A stretch of DNA of 64,000 nt from positions 15,181 through 79,180 of IMG/VR virus record IMGVR_UViG_3300000547_000002. One strand, 5' to 3'. Position 1 is the stretch's first letter. Each line of letters opens with the position of its first letter. The stretch comes from a virus. This document shows positions 53,998 to 59,011 of this stretch, piece after piece. Under the pieces are notes generated by a model, which was given only the letters and a program-made list of their open reading frames with translations, was not told the origin of the DNA and did no database searches. The position numbers and the translations under genes were made by a program.

Positions 53998-55008
53998 ATG
54001 TTTGATAAAGCAGCAGTATTCACAGACCTACACTTGGGTCTAAAATCTAACTCTCGTATACACAATCAGGACTGCGAAGATTTTGTAGACTGGTTTATAG
54101 AACAAGCAAAAGCAAACGGTTGCGAAACTGGTATATTCTGCGGGGATCTGCATCACAACAGAAACTCGCTTAATATTACCACAATGCAGCATTCGCTTCG
54201 CATACTTGAACGACTAGGCGCTGCGTTTGACCAGTTCTTTTACTTTCCTGGCAATCACGATCTCTACTATAAAGACAAGAGAGACGTGCATTCTGTAGAG
54301 TATGCAAAGCACGTACCTGGCATCACCGTTGTCAATGAAATGTTTGAAGACGATGACGTTGCTCTTGTTCCGTGGTTAGTAGACGATGAATGGAAACGAA
54401 CTGCGAAGATGAAATCACGCTATATGTTTGGTCATTTTGAACTGCCGCACTTCTATATGAACGCAATGGTACAGATGCCAGACAACGGTGAACTAAAAGC
54501 AGAACACTTTCAAAATCAAGAATATGTGTTCTCAGGACACTTTCACAAGCGTCAGCAGCAGGGCAAAATACACTACATTGGCAATGCTTTTCCTCACAAT
54601 TTCGCAGACGCCTGGGACGATGCGAGAGGTATGATGATTCTTGACAAGAAGAACAACCGAGAACCTCAGTATATTGACTGGCCAGATTGTCCCAAGTATA
54701 GAACGGTCAAGCTGTCAGAACTTTTAGAGCCTGACAAAAACATTGCTGTTCCAAAGTCTTACCTGCGAGTCACACTTGACTTGCCTATTTCTTTTGAAGA
54801 AGCAACATTTATCAAAGAAACTTACATTGAACAACACGGCTGTAGAGAAATCACTCTTATTCCGCAAAAGCAGATTGAGGAAATCTCCACAGACGTTGAC
54901 ATAGAATCATTTGAATCCGTAGATGAGATTGTCTCCAAGGAACTTACCGCAATTGAATCAGATTCTTTTGACAATAGAAAATTATTACAGATTTACGGAG
55001 AATTATAA
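53998..55008 (+). CDS. Recombination nuclease subunit, T4 gp47 / Mre11 / SbcD-like
   Basis: DLH, GD, GNHD, GHFE and SGHFH metallophosphoesterase motifs. Confidence 0.92.
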   Translation: MFDKAAVFTDLHLGLKSNSRIHNQDCEDFVDWFIEQAKANGCETGIFCGDLHHNRNSLNITTMQHSLRILERLGAAFDQFFYFPGNHDLYYKDKRDVHSVEYAKHVPGITVVNEMFEDDDVALVPWLVDDEWKRTAKMKSRYMFGHFELPHFYMNAMVQMPDNGELKAEHFQNQEYVFSGHFHKRQQQGKIHYIGNAFPHNFADAWDDARGMMILDKKNNREPQYIDWPDCPKYRTVKLSELLEPDKNIAVPKSYLRVTLDLPISFEEATFIKETYIEQHGCREITLIPQKQIEEISTDVDIESFESVDEIVSKELTAIESDSFDNRKLLQIYGEL

Positions 55009-55553
55009 TGGAGATAATTCAACTATTTCCAACATACGTTTTTACAAAAAAATGTAATTTAGATTTGAAAAAAATTAAAAAAGACTGCTTAGACCACATT
55101 TCTAACACTAAAAGCAGTAGTATATCAAGCACAGGTTATCAACACTATAATTTTGACTGCAAAGTTCTTTCTAAAGAACTTAAAGAATCTATCCCTCAGA
55201 GAGAAGATCTTCCTTTAAAAAGTATTAAAAACAGTTTTTGGGTTAACATTAACTACAAAAATCAGCATAACATCTTACATTCTCACGACCCTTTTTGTGA
55301 CAATGCTCTAAGTGGTGTTTTTTACGTACAAACTCCAAAAGATTGTGGAAATATCAGACTTTATGATCCTAGATATACACTGACAAGTGCACCTGATCTA
55401 AAATATTATAACAATGCAAGTCCGTGCCACATATTTACACCAGAACCTAATTTATTATTAATATTTCCTTCTTGGCTTCAACATTTAGTAGAGCCGAACA
55501 ACTCAGATGAACAAAGAATAAGCATTTCGTTTAACATACAATTAGAATACTAA
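55008..55553 (+). CDS. Putative 2OG-Fe(II) oxygenase (TIGR02466-like)
   Basis: HSH...LSGVFYV...DPR...LLIFPSWLQHLV.PN....RISISFN. Confidence 0.85.
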   Translation: MEIIQLFPTYVFTKKCNLDLKKIKKDCLDHISNTKSSSISSTGYQHYNFDCKVLSKELKESIPQREDLPLKSIKNSFWVNINYKNQHNILHSHDPFCDNALSGVFYVQTPKDCGNIRLYDPRYTLTSAPDLKYYNNASPCHIFTPEPNLLLIFPSWLQHLVEPNNSDEQRISISFNIQLEY

Positions 55554-55554
55554 A

Positions 55555-57324
55555 ATGATTAAATTTAAAGATCTAACCGTGAAGAACTTTATGTCTGTGG
55601 GCAATAGAACACAGGCAGTTGATTTTTCAAACGAGCAACTTACCCTTGTCCTTGGTGAAAACTTAGATCAAGGAGGTGACGATTCTGGATCACGCAACGG
55701 CACGGGTAAGACTACTATCATCAACGCACTTTCGTATGCGCTCTATGGCAGTGCGTTGACTAACATAAAAAAGAACAACCTTATCAACAAGACCAACTCC
55801 AAACATATGTTGGTCACGCTGCACTTTGAAAAGGACGGTGTGGATTATAGGATTGAAAGAGGTCGTTCCCCCAATGTGTTGAAGTTCTATATCAACGACG
55901 AAGAACAGAACTTCACAGACGAATCACAGGGCGATTCTCGTCAGACTCAGGACGAAATCAATCGTCTGTTGGGTATGAGTCACGACATGTTCAAGCACGT
56001 GGTTGCTCTAAACACCTACTCTGAACCGTTCTTAAGTATGCGACAGAATGATCAGAGAGCAATTATTGAGCAGTTGTTGGGCATTACTATTCTGTCTGAA
56101 AAAGCAGAAAGTCTCAAAGAACAGATCAAACAGACAAAGTTTTTAATCACAGAAGAAACCACAAAGATAGAAGCAATACAGGCTGCTAATTCTCGTATTG
56201 AAGAAACTATCAAAAGTCTCAACACAAAACAGAGTGCGTGGCAGACCAAGCACAACAAAGACTGTGAAAAACTGGAACAAGCAATAGAAGACCTTGAGCA
56301 ATTAGACATTGAACAAGAACTGGAAAATCACGAAAAACTGCAGAGTTGGCAGGAGTTTAACTCTGCACTAACGGCTCTTAATAAAGAAAAAAGCACGCTT
56401 GAGGCTGCTCAACTACGCGCCCAAGACTCTGTGAAAAAGGTCGAAAAAGACATCTTAGATTTGGAAGATGCTGTGTGCTATGCCTGCGGACAAGAACTAC
56501 ACGCAGACAAAAAACAAGAAATTATCGACAAAAAAGCAAAAGAACTGCAGGACGCAGAAGCCTATCTCAAAGAAGTTTCTGACAAATTAGATGATGTTTT
56601 AAAAGGCATTTCTGAGATAGGCGAGCTTGATGCTAAACCTACTACATTCTACGAATCACAGAAAGAAGCCTATGAACATAGAAACAATGTAGACGGTTTG
56701 AAGAAAAGCCTAGAAGACAAGAAGGCCGAAGAAGATCCCTATCAAGCACAGATAGACGAACTTTCTAACGAAGCACTGCAGACAATTGACTGGTCACCTG
56801 TAAACGATCTAACAGACATGAAAGAACATCAAGAGTTTCTGCTGAAACTGCTTACAAACAAAGACTCATTTATCCGCAAGAAGATTATAGATCAAAACCT
56901 TGCCTATCTCAATAACAGATTGACATTCTATCTTGACAAGTTGGGCTTGCCACATCTCGTAGAGTTCCAAAATGATCTGTCAGTTGAGATTACACAGTTA
57001 GGTCAGGATCTAGACTTTGACAATCTTTCAAGAGGCGAAAGAAATAGGCTTATACTTGGCCTTTCATTTGCGTTTAGAGACGTATGGGAAAGCCTCTATC
57101 AAAACATCAATCTGCTGTTCATCGACGAGTTGATTGACAGCGGTTTAGATAGTTCGGGTGTTGAAAACTCTCTACACGTGTTGAAGAAGATTGGCAGAGA
57201 AAGAGAAAAGAACATATTCCTAATCTCTCACAGAGACGAACTTGTAGGAAGAGTAAACTACATTTTGAAAGTAATCAAAGAAGGCGGATTTACTTCTTAT
57301 TCAGACGACATAGAAGTTGTATAA
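55555..57324 (+). CDS. Recombination ATPase, T4 gp46 / Rad50 / SbcC-like
   Basis: Walker A NGTGKT, zinc hook CYAC in coiled coil, signature LSRGE, Walker B LLFIDE, ISH. Confidence 0.95.
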   Translation: MIKFKDLTVKNFMSVGNRTQAVDFSNEQLTLVLGENLDQGGDDSGSRNGTGKTTIINALSYALYGSALTNIKKNNLINKTNSKHMLVTLHFEKDGVDYRIERGRSPNVLKFYINDEEQNFTDESQGDSRQTQDEINRLLGMSHDMFKHVVALNTYSEPFLSMRQNDQRAIIEQLLGITILSEKAESLKEQIKQTKFLITEETTKIEAIQAANSRIEETIKSLNTKQSAWQTKHNKDCEKLEQAIEDLEQLDIEQELENHEKLQSWQEFNSALTALNKEKSTLEAAQLRAQDSVKKVEKDILDLEDAVCYACGQELHADKKQEIIDKKAKELQDAEAYLKEVSDKLDDVLKGISEIGELDAKPTTFYESQKEAYEHRNNVDGLKKSLEDKKAEEDPYQAQIDELSNEALQTIDWSPVNDLTDMKEHQEFLLKLLTNKDSFIRKKIIDQNLAYLNNRLTFYLDKLGLPHLVEFQNDLSVEITQLGQDLDFDNLSRGERNRLILGLSFAFRDVWESLYQNINLLFIDELIDSGLDSSGVENSLHVLKKIGREREKNIFLISHRDELVGRVNYILKVIKEGGFTSYSDDIEVV

Positions 57325-57596
57325 TGCCCAAAAGAGTACCAGAGCGAGATAGAAAATTAGTTTATGACGAGGAGGATGACACACATGACATGCTCATCAA
57401 AGCGTACCTTGAATATTACAAACATAACGAAGCGTTTGAAAAAAGGCGCTCGTTTAGAACTTACAGACACGCTAGGCGTTGGCTTAGGGAAGTGCAATAT
57501 CTATCGCGTGTAAGGCAAGACGAAATAATCAACTCATATAAGGCAACAAAACATCTCCGCGCTAAAAAACCAAAAGGCACCGACAATTCCAACTGA
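57324..57596 (+). CDS. Hypothetical basic helical protein
   Basis: 90-aa ORF coupled to gp46 by a TAATG overlap. Confidence 0.65.
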   Translation: MPKRVPERDRKLVYDEEDDTHDMLIKAYLEYYKHNEAFEKRRSFRTYRHARRWLREVQYLSRVRQDEIINSYKATKHLRAKKPKGTDNSN

Positions 57597-57613
57597 TAGG
57601 CTTATATACGTCC

Positions 57614-58051
57614 ATGTCACAATGGACTTATCAAGGCAAACCCGTGGACAGTATACCTGACGAATATGAAGGTTTTGTCTACTTGATAACGAATCTCACC
57701 AACGGGCGCAAATACATAGGCAAAAAACTAGCCAAATTCAAAACTTCAAAACCACCCCTTAAAGGCAAAAAAAACAGAAGAAGAGGATACCGAGAAAGTG
57801 ACTGGCAGGACTACTGGGGTAGTTCTGACAAATTACAGGCAGACGTTGAAGCGTTAGGCACGGAAAATTTTTCAAGAGAGATACTGTATTTTTGCACATC
57901 ACGCGCAGAAATGAGCTATCTAGAGGCAAAGGAACAGTTCGACCGCCGTGTGTTAGAGACAGAAGAATACTATAATGGTATTATAAATGTGAGAGTAGGC
58001 GGATCACGAGTTCTCATCGAATCACTACAAAGGCGCAACGAACAAGGCTAA
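57614..58051 (+). CDS. Stand-alone GIY-YIG (Seg-like) endonuclease
   Basis: GFVYLITN..NGRKYIG, YWGSS, conserved Glu helix (YLEAKEQ), YYN. 145 aa with no separate C-terminal DNA-binding domain. Confidence 0.88.
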   Translation: MSQWTYQGKPVDSIPDEYEGFVYLITNLTNGRKYIGKKLAKFKTSKPPLKGKKNRRRGYRESDWQDYWGSSDKLQADVEALGTENFSREILYFCTSRAEMSYLEAKEQFDRRVLETEEYYNGIINVRVGGSRVLIESLQRRNEQG

Positions 58052-58054
58052 CAA

Positions 58055-58405
58055 GGACTACGCTGGCAAGGAATGCCCGTCTTGAGGACGCATGAAAGAC
58101 TGCGTTCAGATTCTGACGTGTCCGCGTGAGAAGTATACGAAAGGCTTCAAAAGATTGGTGCTCTGAGAAAAAGCAACACCACGGCAAGTGATTTCGCTTG
58201 ACAGGGATACACTGCCGCCCGTTGATATGACGAAGCTGGAGTAAGGGGTACAGGTCAACCGCCTCTGCTGCTGTAAAGCAAATCTCCTGTGTCAAGTATG
58301 GCTGACTCTACTCAGATGATGTTCAAGCCGTATCTTCGCCCTGTTGGGCGAAGTATGACCTCACTATCTAGATGATATTTAAGAAGCAGCACATACGTGC
58401 TGCCT
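58055..58405 (+). ncRNA. Putative large structured non-coding RNA (family not recognised; boundaries approximate)
   Basis: GC-elevated gap with many helices, G-U pairs and a GUAA tetraloop in the + sense, and two long-range pseudoknot-type complementarities. Confidence 0.6.
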
Positions 58406-58450
58406 AATGCCACTTGTTTGTGTTGTCTTATATCACAGAAAGACAGTTGT

Positions 58451-58500
58451 AGTTTGAGCGACAAGCGAAAACTTGTATTAGCGAAGCTAATACATAAATA
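58451..58500 (+). promoter_or_regulatory. Two hairpins (tandem-GA stem; GCGAAGC-core stem) abutting late promoter CATAAATA
   Basis: AGTTT-GA-GC..GC-GA-AAACT (58451-58473); TGTATTAGC-GAA-GCTAATACA (58474-58494); CATAAATA (58493-58500). Confidence 0.55.
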
Positions 58501-58522
58501 CTAAAATAACCTGGATTATGTT

Positions 58523-59011
58523 ATGATTGTATCTGAAATCATTTATGAACAGTCGAATAGAACTGCCGAAGAAATATTCAAGGACGCACAATCTCTTCCT
58601 AGAAATCAACAGGAAATTCTTAAAAAGTTCTTGTCTGATATTCCAAAATTACCAGCAGGAAAATCTACAACAATGGACGGCGTTGAGTATGAATGGGACG
58701 GAAAGCAGTGGAGAAACAAAAAAACCAAAAGATTAGAGCCTTTTCCTGAATCTCCTAAATTTTTTCAGCTGTTTGATCCCGAAGTAATGAAGAGGACTGG
58801 TGATTTGTATAGAGATGCACAAGAATCTGGCGTTCTAGTAGAATTAGAAAAGTTATTCAGACAGAAATCTGTATCAAAACCAAAAAAAACAAACACAGGC
58901 AAAAATAAAGACAAAGACAAAAAAACCAGAACAGGAAATCTTGTACGAGATATGCAAAGAGCAACCGGAAGAGCAGGTCCGGCAAAAGATCCCGGCGACG
59001 GTCCTGACTAG
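58523..59011 (+). CDS. Hypothetical late protein, candidate internal head protein
   Basis: Late promoter upstream; N-terminus MIVSEIIYE; Lys-rich C-terminus. Confidence 0.6.
   Translation: MIVSEIIYEQSNRTAEEIFKDAQSLPRNQQEILKKFLSDIPKLPAGKSTTMDGVEYEWDGKQWRNKKTKRLEPFPESPKFFQLFDPEVMKRTGDLYRDAQESGVLVELEKLFRQKSVSKPKKTNTGKNKDKDKKTRTGNLVRDMQRATGRAGPAKDPGDGPD

What the first reader, a model, noticed from the sequence alone, without database searches (positions are those of the whole stretch)
57614..58405. Minimal GIY-YIG nuclease followed directly by a ~350-nt, apparently pseudoknotted RNA: candidate nuclease-RNA system
Seen: genes here usually overlap, yet the longest gap in the window (58052-58522) begins at the GIY-YIG stop and is GC-elevated and packed with helices. 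Local stems: GGACGCA/TGCGTTC (58086-58107); TGGTG/CACCA (58156-58181) around CTGAGAAAA; CGGCA-A-GTG/CAC-TGCCG (58182-58217); AGGGG/CCTCT (58244-58266); TGCT-GTAA-AGCA GNRA hairpin (58269-58280); CTTCGCCC-TGTT-GGGCGAAG (58334-58353); GCAGCAC/GTGCTGC (58386-58403). Two loop sequences have distant complements, implying pseudoknots: CTTGACAGG (58197-58205) with CCT-GT-GTCAAG (58286-58296), and TCTGAG (58162-58167) with CTCAGA (58311-58316). G-U pairs and the GNRA loop favour a + strand RNA co-transcribed with the nuclease. The protein is only the catalytic domain plus a very basic insertion (KKLAKFKTSKPPLKGKKNRRRGYR). Known: GIY-YIG homing nucleases such as I-TevI use extra DNA-binding domains, and compact IscB/TnpB nucleases use an adjacent structured RNA instead. 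Inference: this could be an RNA-associated (possibly guided or RNA-inhibited) GIY-YIG ribonucleoprotein. Alternatives are a ribozyme or a replication/packaging signal beside gp46/47.
Basis: partly seen in the sequence, partly recalled or inferred. Interest (0 to 1): 0.85.

Follow-up and report, generated by a model that had tools for sequence, protein, structure and literature searches.

The report
Large twin-box RNA beside phage nuclease
The gene-free stretch behind a small DNA-cutting enzyme gene of this uncultured giant T4-like aquatic phage encodes a real, knotted non-coding RNA of about 435 bases. It belongs to a largely uncatalogued family, carries the same fast-changing short word twice, is not shown to guide the enzyme, and has no known job.

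Summary
Window 58060-58494 (+) encodes a conserved structured RNA. Its first pseudoknot is strongly supported; the second is only partly supported. A covariance model built without the window finds it at 70 bits (E 3e-15). Across 86 distinct sequences, 94.5% of cells pair against 77% in shuffles.

Rfam has no match in the window. In other subtypes the 5' third is the orphan Rfam motif Polynucleobacter-1 (RF01718), so the family is partly catalogued.

Two 12-nt boxes (58310-58321 and 58366-58377) share a variable word that changes in both together.

The locus is syntenic, not mobile: gp47, gp46, small ORF, nuclease, RNA, then variable late genes. The RNA occurs once per ~350-kb genome.

The ribonucleoprotein or guide reading is not supported:
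- the GIY-YIG family occurs without the RNA (Melnitz phage, cyanophages);
- the RNA occurs with an unrelated PDDEXK nuclease in place of GIY-YIG (three loci);
- there is no terminal guide.

A small nuclease gene always fills the slot upstream of the RNA. Function is unknown.

This scan has already reported the same family on other genomes as the "twin-box RNA".

The parts
57324..57596 (+). Small basic ORF (90 aa, 'F0'), conserved directly upstream of the nuclease gene in most relatives. No family match.
57614..58051 (+). 145-aa GIY-YIG nuclease, catalytic domain only (SegE_GIY-YIG, PF19835).
   Evidence: Pfam E 1.6e-34. PHROG 447. More than 8000 homologues; the best 120 listed are 132-160 aa. 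One copy per complete genome.
58060..58494 (+). Whole structured RNA ('twin-box RNA'), about 435 nt. It runs from just after the stop codon to the last hairpin before the late-promoter-like box.
58086..58107 (+). 5' hairpin GGACGCA/TGCGTTC.
   Evidence: Compensatory changes in L009, L032 and L034.
58130..58148 (+). Hairpin GAAG..CTTC with a conserved ACGAAAGG loop.
   Evidence: AUAC/GUAU in relatives.
58156..58181 (+). Hairpin TGGTG/CACCA. Its loop CTCTGAGAAAAAGCAA carries the 5' strand of pseudoknot 2 (58162-58167).
58182..58217 (+). Hairpin CGGCA-GTG/CAC-TGCCG. Its apical part (58197-58205) is the 5' strand of pseudoknot 1.
58220..58232 (+). Short hairpin Px (CGTT/GACG).
   Evidence: Helix 1. 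CGCGU/AUGCG in L032.
58238..58287 (+). Three-way junction. Pa is GGAG 58238-41 with CTCC 58284-87. Pb is AGGGG 58244-48 with CCTCT 58262-66. Pc is the variable hairpin at 58269-58280.
   Evidence: Helices 2-4. Pa shows 5 pair types at one position.
58286..58296 (+). 3' strand of pseudoknot 1 (CCTGTGTCAAG).
58310..58321 (+). Box R1, ACTCAGATGATG, lying between GGCT 58300-03 and AGCC 58326-29, which could close a hairpin round it. It is also the 3' strand of pseudoknot 2.
   Evidence: The enclosing stem in the window is read from the sequence and was not tested; the corresponding stem in relatives aligned poorly.
58334..58353 (+). Hairpin Pe, CTTCGCCC-TGTT-GGGCGAAG.
   Evidence: Helix 5: all 8 pairs change on both sides.
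58366..58377 (+). Box R2, ATCTAGATGATA, in a linker with no helix assigned to it. It carries the same variable word as R1.
58386..58403 (+). Hairpin Pf, GCAGCAC-ATAC-GTGCTGC. Relatives often have UUCG caps; some subtypes lack it.
58451..58473 (+). Conserved hairpin AGTTT-GA-GC-GACAA-GC-GA-AAACT. The inner motif GAGCG..GCGAA could form two adjacent G-A mismatches, and the outer stem covaries.
   Evidence: The G-A mismatches are my reading of the sequence.
58474..58494 (+). Terminal hairpin TGTATTAGC-GAA-GCTAATACA.
58493..58500 (+). CATAAATA, resembling a T4-type late promoter, in front of the next gene.
   Evidence: The promoter consensus comes from my own knowledge of T4.
58523..59011 (+). Variable 162-aa gene downstream. 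It is not part of the RNA but bounds it. Its N-terminus resembles T4 internal-protein capsid-targeting sequences.

Best explanation
SHOWN
- Window 58060-58494 (+) encodes a stand-alone, multi-domain, doubly pseudoknotted non-coding RNA of about 435 nt.
- It belongs to a family that is abundant in uncultured T4-like phages; the two complete relatives examined are about 350 kb.
- The family is absent from Rfam, except that some subtypes begin with the orphan motif Polynucleobacter-1.
- It occurs once per genome at a fixed place: after gp47, gp46, a small ORF and a small nuclease gene, and before a late-promoter-like box and variable genes.
- It contains two boxes that keep the same variable word. 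R1 (ACUC + word) lies between two short complementary strands that may close a hairpin round it, and R2 (AUCU + word) lies in a linker.
- A 5' strand complementary to the boxes is present (UCUGAG here, GUUGUUUGA in other subtypes).

INFERRED
- The RNA is made as the 3' tail of the early or middle gp47-gp46 transcription unit and works as its own gene, not as the nuclease's guide.
- The small nuclease gene, GIY-YIG or in three loci PDDEXK, is a habitual neighbour. It is most simply a free-standing homing-type or host-DNA-degrading nuclease parked beside a highly conserved RNA gene, as T4 SegB sits among the T4 tRNA genes.
- Mechanistically I favour a two-state fold. The 5' G/U-rich strand docks on one box and leaves the other free to pair with a sequence-matched partner.
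- What that partner is, and what the RNA does, is not known.
For: Conservation and linkage:
- 56 of 58 protein-anchored loci carry the element on the + strand.
- 115 of 120 pattern-anchored loci carry it.
- 50 of 51 gp46-anchored loci with enough downstream DNA carry it together with GIY-YIG.

Structure:
- Model R1 was built from 21 other sequences and hits the window at 70.4 bits, E 2.7e-15.
- 94.5% of cells pair against 77.1% in shuffles (0 of 500 shuffles reach this).
- 22 of 23 pairs change on both sides.
- The covariation score is 0.479, against 0.147 for shuffles and at most 0.132 for slid controls.
- Pseudoknot 1 passes the within-sequence against between-sequence test.
- G-U pairs fix the strand as +.

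Not coding: stop codons in all + frames.

Not catalogued: no Rfam hit in the window. RF01718 matches the 5' third of 12 relatives at 62-121 bits.

Twin boxes: 43 of 46 sequences in the pattern-free set have identical words, and 170 of 201 loci overall, with many distinct word types.

The 5' partner pairs over 6-9 bp.

Separability from the nuclease.

Fixed synteny and single copy.
Against: - Transcript ends, abundance and independent transcription are therefore unknown.
- A nuclease gene fills the upstream slot in every locus that could be judged, and two unrelated nuclease folds alternate there. That could equally mean the locus needs a nuclease.
- The two-state idea does not by itself explain why the two boxes stay identical. 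The G/U-rich 5' strand would tolerate A/G changes in one box alone.
- The commonest subtype (59 loci) is not captured by model R1, so its core fold was examined only by eye.
Confidence: 0.6

Rival explanations
1. Self-addressed R-loop RNA, that is, an origin primer or a local DNA mark. Box R1 in the nascent RNA pairs with the template DNA strand of box R2, 56 nt downstream. This gives a persistent RNA-DNA hybrid at the RNA's own gene, which primes replication or loads factors, in the manner of ColE1 RNA II or the T4 oriF/oriG transcripts.
For: - The boxes are identical rather than complementary. That is what RNA pairing with the template strand requires, and it would explain why both change together although the RNA-RNA partner tolerates wobble.
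- No reverse complement of the word exists in cis on the + strand. In the window the only complements are the antisense of R1 and R2 themselves.
- The element is single-copy and lies at the end of the replication and recombination gene block.
Against: - The 4-nt prefixes differ (ACUC and AUCU), so only 7-9 bp could form.
- Cumulative GC skew in two complete 345-355 kb relatives is monotonic, with no extremum at the RNA. Skew in such phages mostly follows transcription, so this is weak evidence.
- Nothing like 400 nt of conserved pseudoknotted fold is known to be needed for T4 origin transcripts.
- No DNA-unwinding element was identified.
Confidence: 0.17
2. One reading: the RNA is the partner of the adjacent minimal nuclease. 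It would guide, scaffold or inhibit it, making up for the missing DNA-binding domain, by analogy with the guide RNAs of the TnpB and IscB nucleases.
For: - The RNA starts right after the nuclease stop codon.
- A small nuclease gene is always present upstream.
- In three loci the GIY-YIG gene is replaced by another small nuclease, PDDEXK_15, rather than by an unrelated gene.
- The protein lacks a DNA-binding domain.
- The variable word in box R1 could act as a short guide matched to R2.
Against: - Homologues of the same length and family, basic stretch included, are common in cyanophages and in Melnitz with coding genes directly downstream. Model R1 found no significant match in the three genomes searched.
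- In several loci about 1 kb of other genes separates the nuclease from the RNA, and in one the order is reversed.
- There are no mobile-element ends and synteny is fixed.
- The candidate target R2 lies inside the element itself, which would mean self-targeting.
- No RNA-guided GIY-YIG or PD-(D/E)xK nuclease is known to me (my own knowledge).
Confidence: 0.12
3. A cis-acting mRNA element. This could be a 3' UTR stabiliser, terminator or insulator for the early operon, or a sensor controlling the downstream variable genes. Rfam lists Polynucleobacter-1 as possibly cis-regulatory.
For: - It sits between an early operon and a late gene.
- UUCG- and GNRA-capped hairpins resemble T4 intercistronic hairpins (T4 comparison from my own knowledge).
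- Weinberg et al. 2010 scored Polynucleobacter-1 as a candidate cis-regulatory RNA (PMC2864571).
Against: - The downstream genes have their own late-promoter-like box after the RNA, so late transcripts would not contain it.
- About 435 nt with two long-range pseudoknots and co-varying twin boxes is far more than a stabiliser or terminator needs.
- The downstream genes are unrelated between loci.
Confidence: 0.08
4. Not an RNA at all: a decayed C-terminal domain of the nuclease, a small protein gene on either strand, or a DNA-level signal.
For: Minus-strand ORFs of 50-118 aa overlap the region in several loci and cluster by BLASTP. The window has a 93-aa minus-strand ORF at 58014-58295.
Against: - The ~145-aa protein length is the family norm.
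- There are stop codons in every + frame.
- The minus-strand ORFs overlap the nuclease gene and vary in length and start.
- Substitutions are compensatory in helices, with abundant G-U pairs that only work on the + strand RNA.
Confidence: 0.02

Closest known systems
Polynucleobacter-1 RNA motif (Rfam RF01718; Weinberg et al. 2010, PMC2864571)
   Same: In 12 of the 18 relatives searched, the ~140 nt right after the GIY-YIG stop codon match RF01718 at 62-121 bits. Those same relatives supplied the core model that hits the window, so the window's RNA is homologous to the downstream part of these RNAs. Function is unknown in both.
   Different: The window's own 5' domain gives no RF01718 match even at E <= 10. 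The catalogued motif covers only the first third. The core, the twin boxes and the 3' hairpins are uncatalogued.
GOLLD and ROOL, large 'ornate' RNAs of phages and prophages (Rfam)
   Same: Large, elaborately folded, phage-borne RNAs of unknown function, recognised only by comparative analysis.
   Different: No sequence or structure match in Rfam. This RNA is smaller and sits in a fixed T4-like locus. Twin co-varying boxes are not a described feature of those RNAs, to my knowledge.
T4 SegB and other free-standing GIY-YIG homing endonucleases next to stable-RNA genes
   Same: A small GIY-YIG gene of the Seg type (PF19835) lies beside a conserved structured-RNA gene in a T4-like genome. An unrelated nuclease takes the same slot in some genomes, as happens at homing-endonuclease hot spots.
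   Different: This protein has only the catalytic domain, is single-copy, and is retained down to 47% identity. That looks more like a resident gene than a transient selfish one. No cleavage site is known.
Guide RNAs of the TnpB and IscB nucleases (Rfam HEARO)
   Same: A structured RNA of several hundred nt is encoded next to a compact nuclease gene, starting at or near the end of the ORF.
   Different: The nuclease fold differs, there are no transposon ends, there is no terminal guide, neither partner is obligate, and Rfam gives no match.
ColE1 RNA II pre-primer and T4 oriF/oriG origin transcripts
   Same: An upstream RNA segment with the same sequence as a downstream sense-strand segment could pair with the template DNA and hold an R-loop.
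   Different: No origin activity, no unwinding element and no GC-skew signal were found. The fold is far more elaborate.

Membership tests
Polynucleobacter-1 (RF01718) | Match to the Rfam covariance model at or above its gathering score (37 bits). | tested here: not met
   No hit in the window at gathering score or at E <= 10 in 57300-58700. Twelve relatives do match at 62-121 bits.
Twin-box RNA family (this scan's name; extended Polynucleobacter-1 relatives) | Core fold (Px, Pa, Pb, Pe) detected by a model built from other members. | tested here: met
   Window 58218-58379, 70.4 bits, E 2.7e-15 with model R1.
Twin-box RNA family | Two boxes, ACUC+word and AUCU+same word, 55-70 nt apart and flanking a hairpin. 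| tested here: met
   58310-58321 and 58366-58377, word AGATGAT.
Twin-box RNA family | Pseudoknot between the apical loop of a 5' hairpin and the strand following Pa. | tested here: met
   CTTGACA / TGTCAAG in the window. 30 distinct covarying pairs across the family.
GIY-YIG nucleases, SegE type (PF19835) | Match to the Pfam domain model above its cut-off. | tested here: met
   119.2 bits against a cut-off of 25, E 1.6e-34, residues 4-124.
GIY-YIG nucleases, SegE type (PF19835) | Catalytic motifs (GIY, YIG, Arg, Glu, Asn) intact. | tested here: inconclusive
   FVY..YIG, RRRGYR, YLEAKEQ and YNG are visible in the translation. No structure or residue-level alignment to a solved enzyme was made, and the PDB sequence search found nothing.
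Free-standing homing endonucleases (Seg type) | C-terminal DNA-binding domain added to the catalytic domain. | tested here: not met
   145 aa, of which the domain covers 4-124. The 120 best homologues are 132-160 aa.
Free-standing homing endonucleases (Seg type) | Patchy presence or absence, or multiple copies, among close relatives. | tested here: not met
   Present in 50 of 51 gp46-anchored loci. One copy per complete genome. Replaced by PDDEXK_15 in three loci.
RNA-guided nucleases of mobile elements (TnpB, IscB) | Obligate pairing of nuclease and RNA inside a mobile element, with a terminal guide. | tested here: not met
   Each occurs without the other. Synteny is fixed. The variable words are internal and duplicated.
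Group I intron carrying a homing endonuclease | Match to the intron model and a split host gene. | tested here: not met
   No Intron_gpI hit at E <= 10. The flanking ORFs are unrelated, separate genes.
Mini CRISPR array (two repeats, one spacer) | Near-identical repeats flanking a variable, unstructured spacer. | tested here: not met
   The 'spacer' is the conserved, covarying hairpin Pe. The repeat prefixes differ constantly.
tRNA or tmRNA | Detected by ARAGORN. | tested here: not met
   No such gene in the window.
R-loop origin primer (ColE1 RNA II type) | Origin activity at the locus. | tested here: inconclusive
   Box identity fits RNA pairing with the template strand. GC skew in two complete relatives shows no extremum at the RNA.

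The most novel reading that the evidence does not exclude
The twin boxes are a fast-evolving self-address code. Box R1 base-pairs with the template DNA strand of box R2, or with the same site in a co-infecting relative. The resulting RNA-DNA hybrid is then read by the neighbouring small nuclease or by the replisome. That would give a programmable RNA-DNA recognition system, built on GIY-YIG or PD-(D/E)xK nucleases, that tells self from related phages.
Probability: 0.12. Interest if true: 0.9.

Novelty: new variant of a known kind. Interest (0 to 1): 0.62.

Why it matters
RNAs of this size and complexity with no known job are rare. Past examples turned out to be ribozymes, riboswitches, guide RNAs or self-assembling cages.

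It is single-copy in the two complete ~350-kb phage genomes examined. It shows an unusual constraint, two boxes that must stay identical, which points to sequence-matched recognition of something outside the RNA fold.

The work also shows that the orphan Rfam motif Polynucleobacter-1 is only the front third of a much larger phage RNA.

If the boxes address DNA, this would be a new kind of RNA-programmed recognition. If not, it is still a well-defined target for structural and genetic study.

Tried and rejected
- Rfam at gathering score and at E <= 10: only chance-level snoU83D and mir-15 hits.
- ARAGORN: no tRNA or tmRNA.
- BLASTN against cultured phages: only the nuclease coding region of Melnitz matches.
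- RNAalifold on a MAFFT alignment of all subtypes recovered only hairpin Pe, because variable hairpins misalign. Automatic helix calling on MAFFT alignments failed likewise. I switched to a hand-annotated seed and a covariance model.
- A first pseudoknot test with wide windows had no power, giving 6.8 against 5.6. It was redone with narrow windows.
- Search for a reverse complement of the box word in cis: none at a consistent place.
- Small ORFs starting in R1: not conserved, read from the alignment.
- A loop-loop pseudoknot between AGGTCA in Pb and TGACC before R2: it holds in the window and in the commonest subtype, but relatives with ACAGCACAACCG loops lack it. Not claimed.
- Anticodon-loop mimicry of R1 (CUC-xx-AU): the loop is too long. 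Dropped.
- Co-variation of box words with the protein sequence: only three informative pairs of loci, so no power.
- GC-skew test for an origin: monotonic, uninformative.
- PDB sequence search for the nuclease: nothing.
- Literature searches: no paper on this RNA beyond the Rfam motif.

Full report
**1. What is there**

ORF 57614-58051 (+) encodes a 145-aa protein. It matches the SegE-type GIY-YIG domain over residues 4-124 (PF19835, E 1.6e-34) and PHROG 447, which is misnamed 'NAD synthetase'.

From its stop codon to the next ORF at 58523 there is no credible coding frame. G+C rises to 0.47-0.495 there. Rfam 15 finds nothing in the whole window at gathering score and only chance-level hits at E <= 10 around the gap. 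ARAGORN finds no tRNA or tmRNA. Folding the gap alone is only modestly better than shuffles (z -2.5), so the case had to be made by comparison with relatives.

**2. Conservation**

The protein has more than 8000 relatives, and the best 120 listed are 132-160 aa. The short form is therefore the norm.

I fetched 80 viral loci by protein similarity. In 56 of the 58 with enough downstream DNA, an iterated nhmmer profile finds a conserved + strand element behind the gene.

A DNA pattern taken from the alignment brought 120 more loci. Of these, 115 carry the element, with nuclease identities down to 47%.

An independent sample anchored on gp46 gave 51 loci that could be judged. Fifty have nuclease plus RNA, and one has the RNA with a different nuclease.

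Complete relatives are 345-355 kb and hold one RNA and one GIY-YIG gene each.

**3. Structure**

I annotated five helices by hand on an alignment of 21 sequences that excluded the window. From this I built covariance model R1 and searched 100 sources. The window scores 70.4 bits, E 2.7e-15, at 58218-58379.

On the resulting alignment of 86 distinct sequences:
- 94.5% of cells pair, against 77.1% in shuffles (0 of 500 shuffles reach this);
- 22 of 23 pairs change on both sides;
- the covariation score is 0.479, against 0.147 for shuffles and at most 0.132 when partners are slid.

Frequent G-U pairs place the RNA on the + strand.

In narrow homologous windows the longest Watson-Crick run averages 6.6 within a sequence and 3.6 between sequences. 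Runs of 6 bp or more occur in 85% against 6%. There are 30 different complementary sequence pairs.

The second pseudoknot (58162-58167 with R1) is compensated in some relatives (UCUGA/UCAGA against UGUGA/UCACA) but not in all. In other subtypes the corresponding strand, GUUGUUUGA, pairs with R1 over 9 bp with wobbles.

Downstream of R2 come a capped hairpin and then a strongly conserved hairpin. The latter has an inner GAGCG..GCGAA motif that could form two adjacent G-A mismatches, and a covarying outer stem. A further hairpin follows, and then a CATAAATA box like a T4 late promoter. The RNA therefore spans about 58060-58494.

**4. Twin boxes**

R1 is ACTCAGATGATG (58310-58321). R2 is ATCTAGATGATA (58366-58377). 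They share a variable word.

In the pattern-free set 43 of 46 sequences have identical words. Overall 170 of 201 loci do, with many distinct word types. A single A-to-G change in L013 appears in both boxes.

The prefixes ACUC and AUCU never mix. In the window R1 lies between two short complementary strands (GGCT 58300-03 and AGCC 58326-29) that could close a hairpin round it; I read this from the sequence and did not test it, and the corresponding stem in relatives aligned poorly. R2 lies in a linker with no helix assigned.

No reverse complement exists in cis. The G/U-rich 5' partner would tolerate A/G changes in one box alone. The identity of the two boxes therefore calls for another reader: template-strand DNA, an antisense RNA or a protein. 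This remains unexplained.

**5. Relation to the nuclease**

Synteny is fixed: gp47, gp46, optional genes, a small basic ORF, the nuclease, the RNA, variable + strand genes, then a minus-strand baseplate gene.

Points against an obligate partnership:
- Melnitz phage has a 70%-identical GIY-YIG next to ribonucleotide reductase genes and no RNA.
- Cyanophages P-HM1 and S-CAM7 carry the family with coding genes directly downstream and no RNA.
- Loci L096, L141 and L251 keep the RNA but have a PDDEXK_15 nuclease (PF24608) in the slot.
- Several loci have about 1 kb inserted between nuclease and RNA, and one has the reverse order.

One point in favour of some link: every locus that could be judged has a small nuclease gene upstream.

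**6. Relation to known RNAs**

I tested it. Twelve relatives match RF01718 at 62-121 bits in the ~140 nt right after the nuclease stop codon. The window does not match.

Weinberg et al. 2010 list that motif as a candidate RNA, possibly cis-regulatory, from Burkholderiales and fresh water or estuary samples (PMC2864571). The window's RNA is thus an uncatalogued subtype of a family whose front third is catalogued in other subtypes.

Three literature searches found nothing further.

**7. Mechanism**

- The best-supported reading is an independent structured RNA with a habitual nuclease neighbour. I add a tentative two-state docking of the 5' strand on one of the two boxes.
- The R-loop or origin reading explains the box identity neatly but has no positive evidence. 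GC skew is monotonic in two complete relatives.
- The guided-nuclease reading is weakened by the separability of RNA and nuclease.
- Expression could not be examined.

**8. Verdict**

This is a real and interesting RNA. It is already seen repeatedly by this scan on other genomes, and part of the family is in Rfam. Its function is unknown, and the ribonucleoprotein claim is not supported.

Noticed in passing
window 58523-59011 (+), and the first + strand gene after the RNA in L001-L080: The genes after the RNA are unrelated in length and family (161-563 aa). Nearly all start MK[IVL]x[EQD][IL]..E, which resembles the capsid-targeting sequence of T4 internal proteins (my own knowledge). Each follows an ATAAATA late-promoter-like box. 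This looks like a hypervariable cassette of injected proteins.
   Followed up: partly
L141 3565-4071, L096 6472-6987 (-), L251 4742-5263: In three loci a ~170-aa PDDEXK_15 nuclease (PF24608) occupies exactly the slot of the GIY-YIG gene upstream of the RNA.
   Followed up: yes
L002-L078 and L245-L323, at contig ends: Many metagenomic contigs end 0-200 nt after the GIY-YIG stop codon, at no fixed base (21 of 80; many gp46-anchored loci too). These are probably assembly breaks where different 5' domain types of the RNA coexist.
   Followed up: partly
window 57324-57596 (+): A small, very basic 90-aa ORF with no family match is conserved just upstream of the nuclease gene in most relatives. It could be an RNA- or DNA-binding partner. 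Not examined.
   Followed up: no
window 58451-58473 (+): A nearly invariant GAGCG-NNNA-GCGAA motif sits inside a hairpin whose outer stem covaries freely. It looks like a protein-binding or tertiary-contact site.
   Followed up: partly
window 55008-55553 (+): A 2OG-Fe(II) oxygenase gene (PF13759) is inserted between gp47 and gp46.
   Followed up: no
G001 and G002 (complete relatives, 345 and 355 kb): These T4-like phages are jumbo-sized. Nearly all their genes lie on one strand, and cumulative GC skew is monotonic.
   Followed up: partly
window 58295-58321 and 58351-58377: The direct repeat is longer than the 12-nt boxes. About 27 nt (AGTATGGCTGACTCT+R1 and AGTATGACCTCACT+R2) repeat, and each copy is followed by a hairpin (Pe, Pf).
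   Followed up: partly
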